A DNA stretch of 64,000 nt from a phage. The position numbers and the translations under genes were made by a program. The notes beneath the pieces are model-generated. The model saw only the letters and a program-made list of their open reading frames with translations, did no database searches and was not told the DNA's origin. Of this stretch, positions 3,568-64,000 are shown piece by piece. Position 1 is the first letter of the stretch. The number at the start of each line of letters is the position of its first letter. Location of the stretch: the sequence record OZ556245.1, one strand, 5' to 3'.

Positions 3568-5745
3568 TTAGGCCGCAAGGGCCTTCATAGTTTTAGCGAT
3601 TTGGGAAACTTCATCATCACTTAAAGAGTTGCGATAACCGATGAAGTCGGAAACAATACGGAATTTCTTGGTAAACTCAGCAACCATTTTATCACTGTTT
3701 TTTGAAGCATTATTTGATAATACATCAAAAAGATTAGTTACTGTCCAGATGTCATGACCGATGGTACCTTTTCCACCGTTGAAATATATACCCTGCAATG
3801 AACTAACCATATTACCAAGGCGAGTATATTCTTCAGAAACTTCATCTACACTGAAGTACTTCATCATAAAATCTAACTCAGGATACTTGATAATTTTATC
3901 AATATATCGTTTAGCTGAACTTGAATAACCTACATACTTATCATAATCTACAGCATCAAAAGCATCTACATATAAATCACGTAGAGTTTCAAAAATACAT
4001 TGGCACTGACCGAGTTCTTTTACCTTTTTCTGCAAAAGCGGACGAATAACATAAAATTCATTAATGCCAATAAGATTAGCCATACGAGTCAAAATACTCG
4101 TAGATGGATGACAAAGCGATGTAGTACCATCCATAGAGAAAATATCAGAACGATGCATGTATGCTACATAACCAGTAATTTCATCTGCTTCTGATGTGAG
4201 TGTAAACAGTTCCTCTTTTTCCCAGCGTCCGTCTTTAATTTCAAACTTAAATGCAGTAGCAGCTTTAGGACGAGGAGCTTTACTTTTAACTACCTTCGGA
4301 ATATAACTTTTAACTAAAGCTTCAATTTCTGACAAATAATGAATGTTAACTTCATCACTTTCAAACATCGCAATAATATCAGGAAGTAAATCAATCTGCG
4401 ATTCTACTTCCGGGTTAATAAACAGAAGACGCTCATTATGATGAATATTTAAAGTGTTATTAAATTCACTATCATCTAACGCATGTGCTAATCCACGGAC
4501 AATATTAACACGATTTTTAATATCATCAATAACGATATTAATTTTTGTTGTATTAATACCGAACAGACGATAGCTTGATGCAACGGCTGAAGTTTCATGG
4601 CTTTGCTTAATGCGTTTCAGTCGAGGGTCAAGATTTACTTCATACACAACCCCTGCATTACATAACTTACTATCAGGTTCAAACATGCTCTGCATCTTCT
4701 TATATGACAAATTTTTAGTCGTGAATTTGACTGAATTACTAATCATATAATCTCGAGCAGAATACCCCATCTTCATCAATTCGCGATATGTGTGACGAGG
4801 AGATGTAGATTCTTTAAATCGTTTTACATCTTCATTAAATGCTTGCTCACTAAGTTCTTTAACTCGTTCAATAATATTTTTACGAGTACGATCATCCAGT
4901 GAAAGAGCCTCGCGAGATGGAGCAATATCAAGTGAACCCATTGGAAACTTAATGTAATTCACTTCATTACGAATGCTTAGCCAGTTACGCTCTCTAATAA
5001 CACCATCAATAGGATAAACAATACCGCCATAGATGGCATACAATCCACCACGATCAGGCCAATATCTTTCTGGATTTACGCCATAGTAGTCATCAAAATC
5101 CGGAAAATAATCAATTTCACGGTCAAGACCATTGATGATAGCCAAATCTTTGAATGGCCGCATGATATAAGAAACTTCATAAGCAAAGTTTCTAAAGTCT
5201 TTTTCTTCAACTGGAACTACGATTTCAATACCAGTTTTATCATCTGGGCCCATTTCTTTTACAAATGTAGGTTTAATTTGTGGACCATCGCCATCCATAT
5301 AAGCTACATAACCACGAATTTCGCCTTTATGATACGAAGTAATACTAAACGTATCAGTATAACTAAATGGAGATTTAGAACCTAAACCAAATCCGCCAAT
5401 GAAATCGTTGGATTCGGCTTTAGATGAACTGAAGTATGAATTATACAGACCAGGAGAATTATCATCACCTTGAATATCAAAATCGCTCATACCCGGACCA
5501 AAATCTCGGCAAACAAATCGCGGATCTAATCGTCCTGGAACTTGAATGATAAATTTTTCATGATTTCCATTGAGAGCATGGGCGTCAATCATGTTGGTAA
5601 TCAATTCACGGACTACTGCGCGAATCTTGTTTGTATACAAATCAGATGACAGAATTTTAAATACTTTAGGAGATGCTGTGATGCTAAATGCTTTTGATTT
5701 AGAACCATTACCAAGAATTGTTTCTTTTTCAGTGGTGATAATCAT
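3568..5745 (-). CDS. rIIA: rIIA protein with N-terminal GHKL-type ATPase fold
   Basis: 725 aa as T4 rIIA; Bergerat N-box ELITNMIDA and DFGPGM G1 box near N-terminus. Confidence 0.9.
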
Positions 5746-60604: not shown

Positions 60605-60786
60605 AAGGAATTTATATAATCAATAAGTTCTTGTTCTTTATCGTCGAAATCTTTACACAGTTCTTCGTATTCATCGGTATTAAAAGGACCGCATTCATCA
60701 CAAACTTTTTCTAATTCATTGTTTTTATCCATAACTTCATGAATAAGAGAAAACAGCCTGTCTTTCTGTTCTTTGCTTAGGCTCAT
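60601..60786 (-). CDS. small helical protein, S/T-x-EQ family (61 aa)
   Basis: N-terminus MSLSKEQKDRLFSLIHEV. Confidence 0.45.
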   Translation of the reverse strand: MSLSKEQKDRLFSLIHEVMDKNNELEKVCDECGPFNTDEYEELCKDFDDKEQELIDYINSL

Positions 60787-60955
60787 AGTATGTCAATCCC
60801 CAAAAGTTTTAAAATGACTCGTTTCTGATTCATAACCGCTACGATTGAATGACCGTTGGGGTCTTTTTGACCTGATCCAATTATAAATCCTTTTTGCGCA
60901 GAAAGTTCAATCAAAACATCAAGTTCACGTAATAATTGATATTTTAAATCATCAT

Positions 60956-61183
60956 TCATTTTGGTTTACCTTCTTTAACGAAATCGGGATAAGGATAAAA
61001 TCCTGAATAAAATCCTTCACCTTTATGATTGATGCATCCTTTATTAGAACAGTAGCACCAATAATCGAAATCACAAGCCATTTCATCATTACATAAAGCA
61101 AAAACAACCGGCCATTCACACTTTTCGCAGTGGGCATTTTTAAGAATACTAGTTTGGCTCATAACCATGTAACCTTTAAGCAA
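60956..61183 (-). CDS. Cys-rich small protein (75 aa)
   Basis: eight Cys in CEKCEW...CNDEMACDFDYWCYCSNKGC. Confidence 0.45.
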   Translation of the reverse strand: MLKGYMVMSQTSILKNAHCEKCEWPVVFALCNDEMACDFDYWCYCSNKGCINHKGEGFYSGFYPYPDFVKEGKPK

Positions 61184-61371
61184 TATTCTTCTACGTGCTG
61201 TTTACGACCTTTCTTATCAATAAAGGTATATTCAACGAATGTTCCAACATAGTCTTTATTTACATCATGTGGACTATTAATTGGGCATTTAGTACGGCAA
61301 ATGCGTTCCCATTGACGAATAATTTCCACTTTGTTTTTAGGATCAAATGGATGCGGGTAATGTACTTTCAT
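61159..61371 (-). CDS. hypothetical protein (70 aa)
   Basis: ORF track. Confidence 0.45.
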   Translation of the reverse strand: MKVHYPHPFDPKNKVEIIRQWERICRTKCPINSPHDVNKDYVGTFVEYTFIDKKGRKQHVEEYCLKVTWL

Positions 61372-61822
61372 AATCCACCACTATTAAATCAATATCAGGA
61401 GTAAACATGTCGATTAATTTAGAAACCTTATCCCAATCGCCGCCAGCAATACCGCAACCGATGCGTGGAATGTAAATTACTGGTTTAAACAAAAGGGTTT
61501 CTGCCTGTAGATTTAATTCTATCATGCAGTTTACTAAAGCACCATAATCAAGATTAGGACCCGGTTCGTATTGCGTATACAAATTATAGCACATACTAAA
61601 TCCTGTAGGATTATGTTTAAAAACAATAGACATATCGCCTAATTTATCACGAGAACCGTACTCGGTAGTGGTTTTATCTATTTCTAAAATTTTGGGATAG
61701 GCTCTTGCTAATTGACCTGCTACGCCAGAGCCCATTGTGTGGAAGCAATTACACCCGTGCGCAATAATATTACCTTGAAGAAATAGGGCGACAATATCGC
61801 CCTTGATATATTTTACAATCAT
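61343..61822 (-). CDS. macro-domain protein (ADP-ribose binding/processing fold)
   Basis: KGDIVAL...HGCNCFHTMGSGVAGQL...IPRIGCGIAGGDW matches macro-domain GDI, Gly-rich loop and second Gly loop. Confidence 0.6.
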   Translation of the reverse strand: MIVKYIKGDIVALFLQGNIIAHGCNCFHTMGSGVAGQLARAYPKILEIDKTTTEYGSRDKLGDMSIVFKHNPTGFSMCYNLYTQYEPGPNLDYGALVNCMIELNLQAETLLFKPVIYIPRIGCGIAGGDWDKVSKLIDMFTPDIDLIVVDYESTLPASI

Positions 61823-62166
61823 CTAGTACTCAATCCTCGATTATAAGAATCTACTAAACGGTCAACCATTGAATGACAAGCGGCTTTATCTTTCTCCTCC
61901 GCAACTGAACATTCTAAGGTATTCCACTTTTTAGCATATCGTTTTAACAATGTATCATTTTTGTATCTGCTTGATTTATCTCTTTCTCCGCCTTTATATG
62001 CATATATTAATTTCTGCGCAAATTCAGCTTGGCATGCTTTATTTTTCCCACAATAATCCGCGGCAGTACGGTTTACATACTCTCTAATTTCAGTATATGA
62101 TGTATCTGCTAACGCAGAAGCAGAAAATGAAATTAATCCTATACATAAAACCAAAATTTTAGTCAT
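61819..62166 (-). CDS. secreted small protein (115 aa)
   Basis: N-terminal signal peptide MTKILVLCIGLISFSASALA. Confidence 0.5.
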   Translation of the reverse strand: MTKILVLCIGLISFSASALADTSYTEIREYVNRTAADYCGKNKACQAEFAQKLIYAYKGGERDKSSRYKNDTLLKRYAKKWNTLECSVAEEKDKAACHSMVDRLVDSYNRGLSTR

Positions 62167-62704
62167 TTACTATTTCCAAAAGTTTATTATTTTTAAGGTA
62201 ATTAGCCTTTTCTAGGACTTCAGAAGCATATTTAGAACCTGCTTTAACATTCCATCCCGAATTATAAGAGGATATCGCCTTTCTTATATCGCCCTTATGT
62301 ATATTTAACCAATAAGAAAGTTCAATGTACGCCCAGGAAGCTGAATTGGACCGTTTATTCAACATTCTTTTTATTTCAGCATCGGTCATATTATAACCAA
62401 GTTCCTTAACTCTTGCTCGCATAGTAGGCAAATAATTTTGGAACATTCCATAGGCATGATGCTTTGGTTTAGATTTTAAATTAACTCCGCCAGAGCTTTC
62501 TTGCCATAAAATGGCTGCCATTATATGACCTAATCCACTCTTGTGGATATTTTTGTGCGTTTTATATTTTCCATCCTTAGAAAACTGTTCCCCGAATTGA
62601 TACGCGTAACGCATGTTATCGAGTTGGACATTACTGAAAGTATGCTCGGAGCTATGTGCCATCATTGAAATGGCCAATAGACCAGCGAGTAGTGCTTTTC
62701 TCAT
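62159..62704 (-). CDS. periplasmic lytic transglycosylase-like protein (SLT domain)
   Basis: signal peptide; catalytic-type motif ILWQESSGG and AYGMFQ. Confidence 0.6.
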   Translation of the reverse strand: MRKALLAGLLAISMMAHSSEHTFSNVQLDNMRYAYQFGEQFSKDGKYKTHKNIHKSGLGHIMAAILWQESSGGVNLKSKPKHHAYGMFQNYLPTMRARVKELGYNMTDAEIKRMLNKRSNSASWAYIELSYWLNIHKGDIRKAISSYNSGWNVKAGSKYASEVLEKANYLKNNKLLEIVND

Positions 62705-62711
62705 GCTTACC

Positions 62712-63173
62712 TCATTGAGTTTTAATTACTGCTTTAGAAGCCTTTCCTGGTAAACGACGACTGTTAATAATTGCCATCCTGCATTGAAGCGACGGGTCTT
62801 TGAACTTCGCATTAGGTTTACAAACTGTAAATCCAAGCCAAAGATTTCCATCTGTAATTTCTAAACGTCCAGGACGGTATTCAACCCCATCAATAAAATC
62901 CTCATCAATGTCAGGACGCGGAGGCATACTCAGGAATTCATTAACTTCTAAAACATGGTCTTTTATTTTGTGGAATAATTCAAAAACATATGTCTCATCA
63001 ATCTCCCGTTGAATTGCACGATCAAGAAGATGCTGAGAATATTTTAGATGAAACGATGAGACCCCTGCTGCTTTTGATGCCTCACGAATCTCATTGTTAA
63101 TTTGACGAAACTCCGACTCAAAGTGACGACGAAGCTTATTTCGACGGATAAAAACTTCTGTGTTGATAGTCAT
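62712..63173 (-). CDS. regB: RegB endoribonuclease
   Basis: 153 aa as T4 RegB; own early promoter immediately upstream. Confidence 0.75.
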   Translation of the reverse strand: MTINTEVFIRRNKLRRHFESEFRQINNEIREASKAAGVSSFHLKYSQHLLDRAIQREIDETYVFELFHKIKDHVLEVNEFLSMPPRPDIDEDFIDGVEYRPGRLEITDGNLWLGFTVCKPNAKFKDPSLQCRMAIINSRRLPGKASKAVIKTQ

Positions 63174-63201
63174 GTTATTCTCCTCTTAACTGATAGAAAA
63201 A

Positions 63202-63231
63202 TTATACCACAGTCAAGAGGAAAAGTAAACA
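63202..63231 (-). promoter_or_regulatory. early promoter upstream of regB
   Basis: GTTTAC - 17 nt - TGGTATAAT. Confidence 0.55.
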
Positions 63232-63232
63232 G

Positions 63233-63553
63233 TTATTCTTTAAATTTAATCAATTTATTCATAGACTTTGAAACTTCTGCACGGACCTCATGTAGGTTTT
63301 TAAGCTGTTCAAGACGTTGCTCATAGTAAGCAATTTCATCTTCTTCAAGACAGTCCTGTGAATCTTCTTTAAGATAACGTGCATAGTCCTGGAAAGCTTT
63401 ACGGACTACTTCTTGGAAGTCATCAAGACTTTGAATTTTCTTAGGAGCAACAGATACACGACGAGGGGCAGTATAATACTCATAACCAAACCCTGCGCTT
63501 AATTGAGCCATTAATATTTTTCCTCTGGTTGGAATACCGCGCGACAAGCCCAC
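63233..63553 (-). CDS. hypothetical protein (106 aa)
   Basis: ORF track. Confidence 0.45.
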
Positions 63554-63813
63554 ATACTAGCTTCTTTGAGTTTCGTTTTAGCAATAGTTAGCTGATCAAG
63601 GCTTTCAGCATAATTCTTTGCGAATTCGTAGTCTTCGCAATTATCTAGTGCTTCCCAGAATTCATCGTATAAAGCGTCAAAGATAAGTCCTAAACGAACT
63701 TCAGCGTCTTTAATAGCATTCACTTTATCGATTTTCTCTTCAGTGTGCGGCTTATAACCTTTAATATCTTCAATCATATTTGACTTCCTCACCCGTTCCC
63801 AAATCATATTCAA
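63511..63813 (-). CDS. hypothetical helical protein (about 100 aa)
   Basis: ORF track; start may be internal. Confidence 0.45.
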
Positions 63814-63991
63814 CTAAACGAATAGGTTCATGAATGCCATATCCTTGAACAGAAATTTCTGTCGTAGGATAAATTCCATTAATATCACCCATGTTCCACG
63901 CTTCATTAAATTGCTGTTCGCCTGAATTACTAAACCATTCGGCAAAAGCATTTAACACATCTTCAGAACCTTCAATAATCATCTTTGCCAT
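63770..63991 (-). CDS. hypothetical acidic protein (73 aa)
   Basis: ORF track. Confidence 0.45.
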   Translation of the reverse strand: MAKMIIEGSEDVLNAFAEWFSNSGEQQFNEAWNMGDINGIYPTTEISVQGYGIHEPIRLVEYDLGTGEEVKYD

Positions 63992-64000
63992 TACAAGCTC

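What the first reader, a model, noticed from the sequence alone, without database searches (positions are those of the whole stretch)
63233..63991. Small helical proteins downstream of regB at the T4 vs.3 to vs.5 positions
By synteny these ORFs occupy the interval where T4 encodes Vs.4, reported as a cyclic-oligonucleotide sponge (Acb2). The ORF at 63511..63813 is a candidate homolog, but I cannot verify sequence identity from memory.
Basis: inference. Interest (0 to 1): 0.4.

Follow-up and report, generated by a model that had tools for sequence, protein, structure and literature searches.

The report
T4-type immune-signal sponge genes vs.4 and vs.3
This stretch of a T4-like phage genome holds near-identical copies of two already characterised T4 genes whose small proteins soak up bacterial immune alarm molecules (Vs.4/Acb2 against CBASS, Vs.3/TadIV-1 against type IV Thoeris), plus a conserved small gene (vs.5) of unknown function, so the finding is correct but ordinary.

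Summary
The window is a Tequatrovirus (T4-like) genome, about 97-98% identical in DNA to hundreds of sequenced phages. The interval 63233..63991 holds three tightly packed minus-strand genes, in order of transcription.

- **vs.5** (63770..63991, 73 aa): function unknown.
- **vs.4** (63511..63777, 88 aa): 98% identical to T4 Vs.4, the crystallised cGAMP sponge Acb2 (PDB 7UQ2). It matches Pfam Acb2_Tad1_hairpin at E = 3.9e-20. Every published ligand-contact and hexamer-interface residue is unchanged.
- **vs.3** (63233..63511, 92 aa): 97% identical to T4 Vs.3. A 2026 paper showed this protein to be TadIV-1, an N7-cADPR sponge that blocks type IV Thoeris.

Three corrections apply:
- The real vs.4 start is the ATG at 63777, not the TTG at 63813.
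- The genes lie upstream of regB in the direction of transcription, not downstream.
- Vs.5 is a mixed helix/strand protein, not a helical one.

Vs.5 is conserved in about 990 phage records but resembles no solved structure. The 58-aa Vs.5 of the T4 RefSeq record comes from a missing base in that record.

Novelty: already known. Interest: low.

The parts
63770..63991 (-). vs.5: a 73-aa acidic protein (pI about 4.05) of unknown function. Its start overlaps the vs.6 stop by 1 nt (TAATG), and its last 8 nt overlap the start of vs.4.
63511..63777 (-). vs.4 = acb2: an 88-aa cyclic-dinucleotide sponge (anti-CBASS). It starts at ATG 63777, preceded by GGTGAGGAAGTCAAAT. Its TAA stop shares one base with the vs.3 ATG.
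   Evidence: 98% identical to T4 Vs.4. 7UQ2 E = 4.8e-55. PF24729 E = 3.9e-20. phrog_717, the family Jenson et al. used for Vs.4 homologues. Model pLDDT 87.7 with helices 13-46 and 50-81; TM 0.77 to 7UQ2 and 0.74 to Acb2 8H2X. The identical protein occurs in 8 phage records, for example PBM-1.
63233..63511 (-). vs.3 = tadIV-1: a 92-aa N7-cADPR sponge (anti-type IV Thoeris), long form with the N-terminal flexible ligand-binding segment. It starts at ATG 63511, preceded by CAGAGGAAAAATATTA.
   Evidence: 97% identical to T4 Vs.3; the differences are N38K, T64E and R89K. E = 4.1e-38 to PDB 9WIW, which is UPEC07 TadIV-1 (PMC13243611). phrog_2037 E = 5e-40. R17, R18 and K24 are present.
63201..63229 (-). 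Sigma-70-type promoter-like site (TTTACT, 17 nt, TATAAT, with TG before the -10) in the 59-nt gap between vs.3 and regB. It is positioned as an own early promoter for regB and marks the end of the close-packed vs.5-vs.4-vs.3 run.
   Evidence: 10 of 12 consensus matches. The number of such sites in the region is no higher than in shuffles, so this is a consensus match only. The assignment as the regB early promoter rests on my own knowledge of T4.
Its own Shine-Dalgarno sequence contains the RegB target GGAG.
   Evidence: Pfam REGB_T4 E = 1.4e-68. GGAG at 63183 within AAGAGGAGAATAACATG.
63991..64000 (-). The 3' end of vs.6 (a GrcA-like glycyl-radical cofactor gene), cut off by the end of the window.
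   Evidence: The T4 and phage 107 annotations place vs.6 immediately upstream with a 1-nt overlap. DNA alignment.

Best explanation
The interval is the vs.5-vs.4-vs.3 segment of a T4-like early gene block. It is read on the minus strand towards regB, with overlapping stop and start codons that suggest coupled translation.

**vs.4** encodes Acb2. Inferred from near identity to T4 Vs.4: the two-helix hairpin protein assembles into a hexamer. It holds three cyclic dinucleotides (3'3'-cGAMP and relatives) in pockets formed between pairs of subunits by Y8, H11, K23, R79 and F82. It sequesters the signal without degrading it. This keeps CBASS effectors such as CapV off. It also makes the phage detectable by the Panoptes decoy system. 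Like T4 Acb2, it should not bind cyclic trinucleotides, because it has D61 where PaMx33 Acb2 has R67.

**vs.3** encodes TadIV-1. Inferred from near identity to T4 Vs.3: it forms a dimer that binds N7-cADPR, the signal made by the TIR protein of type IV Thoeris. Binding uses its flexible N-terminal segment (R17, R18, K24) against helix 1 of the partner subunit. This prevents activation of the caspase-like effector.

**vs.5** encodes a conserved 73-aa acidic alpha/beta protein whose role is unknown.

Shown here: gene identities, intact reading frames, conservation of the functional residues, and the Vs.4 fold. Inferred: ligand binding, oligomeric state and the anti-defence phenotypes.
For: - **Vs.4 identity:** 86 of 88 residues identical to T4 Vs.4; E = 4.8e-55 to 7UQ2; PF24729 at 72 bits against a cut-off of 27; fold TM 0.77 to 7UQ2.
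- **Vs.4 functional residues:** Jenson et al. (PMC10097602) list cGAMP contacts Y8, H11, K23, R79, F82 and S74. They list hexamer-interface residues L29, F33, A66, A73 and A77, and the helix cap T12. All are unchanged in the window. Most are invariant or nearly so across 43 homologues.
- **Vs.4 substitutions:** G17D and C50Y fall in variable columns, and the same protein exists in 8 phage records.
- **Ligand range:** T4 Acb2 binds cyclic dinucleotides but not cA3, with D61 and T68 at the trinucleotide site (PMC10312549). The window keeps D61 and T68.
- **Panoptes:** T4 escapers of Panoptes map to acb2/vs.4 (PMC12657218).
- **Vs.3 identity:** 89 of 92 residues identical to T4 Vs.3; E = 4.1e-38 to 9WIW.
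- **Vs.3 function:** T4 Vs.3 = TadIV-1 was shown by deletion, complementation, SPR (KD about 216 nM) and mutagenesis of R17, R18 and K24. Only long homologues of about 90 aa are active (PMC13243611). The window's protein is 92 aa and has R17, R18 and K24.
- **Operon layout:** 1-nt and 8-nt overlaps and GAGGAA Shine-Dalgarno sequences; T4 synteny.
Against: - No binding or phage assay was done on this particular protein pair, so function rests on 97-98% identity to tested proteins.
- The effect of G17D and C50Y in Vs.4, and of N38K, T64E and R89K in Vs.3, has not been measured.
- Expression level matters. T2 encodes a functional TadIV-1 yet is sensitive to type IV Thoeris.
- Nothing here indicates what Vs.5 does.
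Confidence: 0.93

Rival explanations
1. The true vs.4 product is the longer 100-aa protein from the TTG at 63813. This would add a 12-residue N-terminal extension that could alter the ligand pocket, which uses Y8.
For: An open frame with a TTG start exists at 63813.
Against: - T4, T4T and phage 107 all annotate the 88-aa product.
- The crystallised and assayed protein is residues 1-88.
- A GAGGAAG Shine-Dalgarno sequence lies 6 nt before ATG 63777.
- Full-length homologues are mostly 87-95 aa, and their alignment starts at this M.
- The extension would overlap vs.5 by 44 nt.
Confidence: 0.03
2. The window's Vs.4 or Vs.3 is a functionally drifted copy: it has lost sponge activity or changed ligand specificity because of its substitutions relative to T4.
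For: - There are two substitutions in Vs.4 and three in Vs.3.
- Single substitutions can inactivate Vs.4, for example T12I, S74N and A77I.
- Acb2 homologues elsewhere have shifted to binding 3'cADPR (PMC12393519).
Against: - None of the substituted positions is a reported contact, interface or essential residue.
- Vs.4 positions 17 and 50 are variable across the family.
- The same Vs.4 sequence occurs in 8 independent phage records.
- All long TadIV-1 homologues tested were active, including ones about 70% identical.
Confidence: 0.04
3. Vs.5 is a third counter-defence factor, so that vs.5-vs.4-vs.3 forms a small anti-defence cassette. It could act as a sponge or as an inhibitor of a defence system not yet tested.
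For: - Vs.5 is small, acidic, early-expressed, and sits directly beside two sponges, with overlapping reading frames.
- The vs.5-acb2 adjacency is kept in other genera: Winklervirus and Gaprivervirus.
- It is conserved in about 990 phage records.
- It has no known fold or function.
Against: - Adjacency in a dense T4 early region is weak evidence.
- In Klebsiella phage Roth80, vs.6 separates it from acb2, and it is the N-terminal part of a 163-aa protein.
- Expressed singly, none of the Part I genes other than vs.3 (Vs.4 to Vs.8) impaired type IV Thoeris.
- No oligomer or pocket prediction could be made here.
Confidence: 0.15

Closest known systems
T4 Vs.4 / Acb2 (PDB 7UQ2; Jenson et al. 2023, PMC10097602; Pfam PF24729; PHROG 717)
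   Same: Same gene at the same locus. It has 88 aa with 86 identical, the same start and stop arrangement, all cGAMP-contact and hexamer-interface residues, and the same D61/T68 trinucleotide-site state.
   Different: It carries G17D and C50Y, both in variable positions. This exact variant is already in public phage genomes.
PaMx33 Acb2 (PDB 8H2J, 8H2X, 8IXZ; Huiting et al. 2023; Cao et al., PMC10312549)
   Same: Same family and fold: phmmer E = 0.002 and TM 0.74. The equivalents of Y11 and K26 are present as Y8 and K23.
   Different: Only about 24% identical. PaMx33 Acb2 also binds cyclic trinucleotides through R67 and T74. The T4-type protein has D61 at that position and does not bind cA3.
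T4 Vs.3 / TadIV-1 (UPEC07 homologue, PDB 9WIW; Chen et al. 2026, PMC13243611)
   Same: Same gene at the same locus. It has 92 aa with 89 identical and is the long form with the N-terminal loop. R17, R18 and K24 are present. It is 71% identical to the crystallised UPEC07-type protein.
   Different: It carries N38K, T64E and R89K relative to T4. It lacks the 9-residue loop insertion of the UPEC07 form.
T4T Vs.5 (HM137666, 73 aa; phrog_1986)
   Same: Same 73-aa gene with the same 8-nt overlap on vs.4.
   Different: The T4 RefSeq record (NC_000866) annotates a 58-aa frameshifted product because one C is missing there. No function is known for any member.

Membership tests
Acb2 (anti-CBASS 2 sponge; Pfam PF24729 Acb2_Tad1_hairpin) | Significant sequence match to the family model and to structurally solved members | tested here: met
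   PF24729 E = 3.9e-20, 72.2 bits against a cut-off of 27. 7UQ2 E = 4.8e-55; 8IXZ and 8H2J E about 0.002.
Acb2 (anti-CBASS 2 sponge; Pfam PF24729 Acb2_Tad1_hairpin) | Protein of about 90 aa folding as a long two-helix hairpin | tested here: met
   AF2 model with pLDDT 87.7 and helices 13-46 and 50-81. Foldseek TM 0.77 to 7UQ2 and 0.74 to 8H2X.
Acb2 (anti-CBASS 2 sponge; Pfam PF24729 Acb2_Tad1_hairpin) | Cyclic-dinucleotide pocket residues: T4 Y8, H11, K23, R79, F82 and S74 (PaMx33 Y11 and K26) | tested here: met
   All are identical to T4 and invariant in 43 homologues. The residue list comes from PMC10097602.
Acb2 (anti-CBASS 2 sponge; Pfam PF24729 Acb2_Tad1_hairpin) | Hexamer formation (interface residues L29, F33, A66, A73, A77) | not testable with these tools
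   The interface residues are all conserved. The oligomeric state itself could not be computed or measured here.
Acb2 (anti-CBASS 2 sponge; Pfam PF24729 Acb2_Tad1_hairpin) | Binds and sequesters 3'3'-cGAMP without cleaving it, and inhibits CBASS | not testable with these tools
   Shown for T4 Vs.4 (KD about 30 nM). Inferred here from 98% identity.
Acb2 subgroup with a second, cyclic-trinucleotide pocket (PaMx33 type) | R67 and T74 equivalents lining the cA3 pocket | tested here: not met
   The window has D61 and T68, as in T4 Acb2, which does not bind cA3 even as the D61R mutant. It is therefore a dinucleotide-only Acb2.
[quoted passage not shown] | Sequence homology to T4 Vs.3 and UPEC07 TadIV-1 | tested here: met
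   97% identical to T4 Vs.3. E = 4.1e-38 to 9WIW. 71% identical to the 101-aa form.
[quoted passage not shown] | Long form (over 80 aa) carrying the N-terminal flexible segment needed for activity | tested here: met
   The protein is 92 aa, and residues 1-25 align with the T4 N-terminus. Short homologues of about 70 aa are inactive.
[quoted passage not shown] | Ligand-binding residues R17, R18 and K24 (T4 numbering) | tested here: met
   All are present in the window protein. Their role was shown by mutagenesis.
[quoted passage not shown] | Dimer of two-helix protomers that binds N7-cADPR | not testable with these tools
   Structure and SPR data exist for homologues only.
RegB endoribonuclease (a label attached to Vs.3 and Vs.4 in many database records) | Match to Pfam REGB_T4 | tested here: not met
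   Only the true regB (62712..63173) matches REGB_T4. Vs.3 gives a sub-threshold Tex_N match, and Vs.4 matches only Acb2_Tad1_hairpin.

The most novel reading that the evidence does not exclude
Vs.5, the conserved 73-aa acidic alpha/beta protein translated immediately before Acb2, is a third and still unrecognised counter-defence factor. In that case vs.5-vs.4-vs.3 would be a compact anti-immune-signalling cassette of T-even phages.
Probability: 0.12. Interest if true: 0.5.

Novelty: already known. Interest (0 to 1): 0.12.

Why it matters
It matters little as a discovery. Both sponge genes are published, experimentally characterised T4 genes, and the window's copies are 97-98% identical to them.

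The practical value is in annotation:
- This phage can be expected to resist cGAMP-type CBASS with weak signal output and type IV Thoeris, and to be sensed by Panoptes.
- Many public records label these genes 'hypothetical' or, wrongly, 'endoribonuclease'.
- The T4 RefSeq Vs.5 is a frameshift artefact.

The one open item is Vs.5. It is widespread, has a fold with no known relative, and sits next to two sponges.

Tried and rejected
- **Vs.5 profile search of 1.84 billion representatives**: few true relatives, all short phage-type proteins. It also returned multi-stretch matches to FG-GAP repeat proteins. I regard these as motif or composition matches, not homology.
- **Vs.5 fusion:** one 118-aa fusion of the Vs.5 N-terminal half to a PG_binding_1 domain. 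It is a single cluster and too thin to build on.
- **Literature on vs.5:** searches for vs.5 together with vs.6 or regB returned nothing.
- **RNA elements:** an Rfam scan of 62600..64000 found nothing credible.
- **Terminators:** the scan found none in the interval.
- **Longer ORFs:** the TTG and GTG-initiated ORFs were considered and rejected as the real products.
- **'Endoribonuclease' label:** it is attached to Vs.3 and Vs.4 in GenBank and in PDB 9WIW. I checked it and rejected it.

Full report
**What the window is.** The 1.3 kb around the finding matches 522 phage records by megablast. Of these, 450 are 95-99% identical, and nearly all are Tequatrovirus (T4-like) phages of Escherichia, Shigella and Yersinia. 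Gene order and even coordinates track the T4 reference with an offset of about 433 bp. All genes in this part of the window are on the minus strand.

**The observation.** ORF listing shows three minus-strand ORFs filling 63233..63991. Comparison with the annotated T4, T4T and phage 107 records and protein alignments gives these genes:
- vs.5: 63770..63991, 73 aa.
- vs.4: 63511..63777, 88 aa.
- vs.3: 63233..63511, 92 aa.

The longer mechanical ORFs are over-extensions. Each accepted ATG is preceded by a GAGGAA Shine-Dalgarno sequence. The crystallised T4 protein is residues 1-88, and full-length homologues are mostly 87-95 aa.

The genes are tightly packed:
- The vs.6 stop and the vs.5 start share one base (TAATG).
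- vs.5 overlaps vs.4 by 8 nt.
- The vs.4 stop and the vs.3 start share one base.

A 59-nt gap follows, holding a promoter-like TTTACT-17-TATAAT site. After it comes regB (62712..63173; Pfam REGB_T4 E = 1.4e-68). In the direction of transcription the three genes are therefore upstream of regB.

These are real genes, not chance ORFs. tblastn finds them in 656 (vs.3), 1233 (vs.4) and 988 (vs.5) phage records.

**Vs.4 is Acb2.**
- The window protein differs from T4 Vs.4 at two positions, G17D and C50Y.
- It matches the crystallised Vs.4-cGAMP complex 7UQ2 at E = 4.8e-55 and Pseudomonas phage PaMx33 Acb2 (8IXZ, 8H2J) at E about 0.002.
- It matches Pfam PF24729 (Acb2/Tad1 hairpin) at E = 3.9e-20, well above the gathering score. 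It also matches PHROG 717, the family Jenson et al. used to list Vs.4 homologues.
- An AlphaFold model built on 43 homologues has pLDDT 87.7 and is a two-helix hairpin. It superposes on 7UQ2 with TM 0.77 and on Acb2 8H2X with TM 0.74.

Jenson et al. (PMC10097602) showed the following for T4 Vs.4:
- It binds 3'3'-cGAMP with a KD of about 30 nM.
- It forms a hexamer holding three cGAMP molecules.
- The contacts are Y8 and F82 (stacking) plus Y8, H11, K23 and R79 (polar).
- Mutations at Y8, F82, L29, A66, A73, A77, T12 and S74 destroy the ability to block CapV.

Every one of these residues is unchanged in the window. They are invariant or nearly so in the family alignment, whereas positions 17 and 50 vary. 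The exact window sequence already occurs in 8 phage records.

T4 Acb2 binds cyclic dinucleotides but not cA3 or cAAG, because it has D61 where PaMx33 has R67 (PMC10312549). The window keeps D61 and T68, so the same dinucleotide-only spectrum is expected. T4 Acb2 also binds the decoy 2'3'-c-di-AMP and thereby triggers the Panoptes system, and T4 escapers of Panoptes map to acb2/vs.4 (PMC12657218).

**Vs.3 is TadIV-1.**
- It is 97% identical to T4 Vs.3; the differences are N38K, T64E and R89K.
- It matches PDB 9WIW at E = 4.1e-38.
- 9WIW comes from Chen et al. 2026 (PMC13243611).

That paper reports the following:
- It identified T4 vs.3 by a T4 x T6 mating screen as the gene that lets T4 escape type IV Thoeris.
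- Deletion sensitises T4, and complementation restores plating.
- The protein sequesters N7-cADPR without degrading it (KD about 216 nM).
- It is a dimer of two-helix protomers.
- Binding depends on the flexible N-terminal segment. Short homologues of about 70 aa and the deletion of residues 2-32 are inactive.
- R17, R18 and K24 of the T4 protein are important.

The window protein is the long 92-aa form and has R17, R18 and K24. The equivalents of UPEC07 K57, E58 and H83 are also present (K48, E49 and H74, read from the alignment).

The name 'Endoribonuclease' on 9WIW, and 'RegB domain' on many GenBank entries for Vs.3 and Vs.4, is a propagated error. Pfam REGB_T4 matches only the true regB.

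**Vs.5.**
- The 73-aa frame is conserved at full length in 987 phage records, down to about 41% identity in Klebsiella, Enterobacter and Erwinia phages.
- The T4 RefSeq record annotates a 58-aa Vs.5 that diverges after residue 17. DNA alignment shows that NC_000866 lacks one C that is present in the window, phage 107, T4T and T4 'wild'. T4T annotates the 73-aa product. The RefSeq form is therefore a frameshift artefact or a stock-specific lesion.
- An AlphaFold model built on 29 sequences has pLDDT 84.8. It shows an N-terminal extended segment, a helix at 10-33 and strands at 44-49 and 58-63, so it is not a helical protein.
- The profile search of 1.84 billion representatives found only a handful of short phage-type relatives sharing the motif W-F/M-S-x-S/Q-G-E-Q. 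The remaining hits were repeat-protein matches that I consider spurious.
- Vs.5 sits directly before Acb2 in Winklervirus and Gaprivervirus phages. In Klebsiella phage Roth80 it is the N-terminal part of a 163-aa protein and is separated from Acb2 by vs.6. Vs.3 is absent from two of these three loci.
- In Chen et al., each of Vs.3 to Vs.8 was expressed singly, and only vs.3 impaired type IV Thoeris.
- Its function remains unknown. A counter-defence role is a guess based on position only.

**Verdict.** The Acb2 interpretation is supported by sequence, residue-level and fold tests. The locus holds two adjacent, already published immune-signal sponges in near-identical form, so nothing here is new. 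The residual interest lies in Vs.5 and in the annotation corrections.

Noticed in passing
window 63770..63991; L002 (T4 NC_000866) 5382..5558: The T4 RefSeq Vs.5 (58 aa) results from a single missing C near codon 18. The window, phage 107, T4T (HM137666) and T4 'wild' (KJ477684) all have the extra base and an intact 73-aa frame that is conserved across about 990 phages.
   Followed up: yes
window 63233..63777; PDB 9WIW; many GenBank records: Vs.3 and Vs.4 are often labelled 'endoribonuclease' or 'RegB domain-containing protein', including the molecule name of PDB 9WIW. Pfam REGB_T4 matches neither, so this looks like annotation spill-over from the neighbouring regB.
   Followed up: yes
window 60783..61183 (minus strand): The window has two small genes that the T4 reference lacks between tk.2 and tk.3. 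One is a 58-aa ORF (phrog_3452). The other is a 75-aa Cys-rich ORF matching Pfam PF23895 Phage_zn_bind (E = 4e-29). Phage 107 has both. This indel accounts for most of the coordinate offset from T4.
   Followed up: partly
window 63183 (minus strand), regB Shine-Dalgarno: Of the five gene starts examined (vs.5, vs.4, vs.3, regB, vs.1), only regB's own Shine-Dalgarno sequence contains the RegB target GGAG (AAGAGGAGAATAACATG). The two other GGAG in 62600..64000 lie inside the regB coding sequence. The vs.4 and vs.3 sites use GAGGAA and would not be RegB targets.
   Followed up: no
window 61343..61822 and 62159..62704 (minus strand): The Tk.4 homologue carries a Macro domain (E = 3.7e-08). Vs.1 carries an SLT lytic-transglycosylase domain (E = 1.4e-05). 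The N-terminus of Vs.1 (MRKALLAGLLAISMMAHS...) looks to me like a signal peptide, which I did not test.
   Followed up: no
proteins P0158, P0163, P0174 and P0159: The Vs.5 family profile (positions 17-46, motif WFSxxGEQxFxEAW) gives multi-stretch matches to FG-GAP repeat proteins with secretion tails. It also matches one 118-aa protein that fuses the Vs.5 N-terminal half to a PG_binding_1 domain. The FG-GAP matches are probably motif-level similarity, and the fusion is unexplained.
   Followed up: partly
L003 (Klebsiella phage Roth80) 1801..2292: In Klebsiella T4-like phages the Vs.5 domain is the N-terminal part of a 163-aa protein (phrog_17468). The vs.6 gene lies between it and Acb2, and regB is annotated there as two split ORFs.
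   Followed up: no
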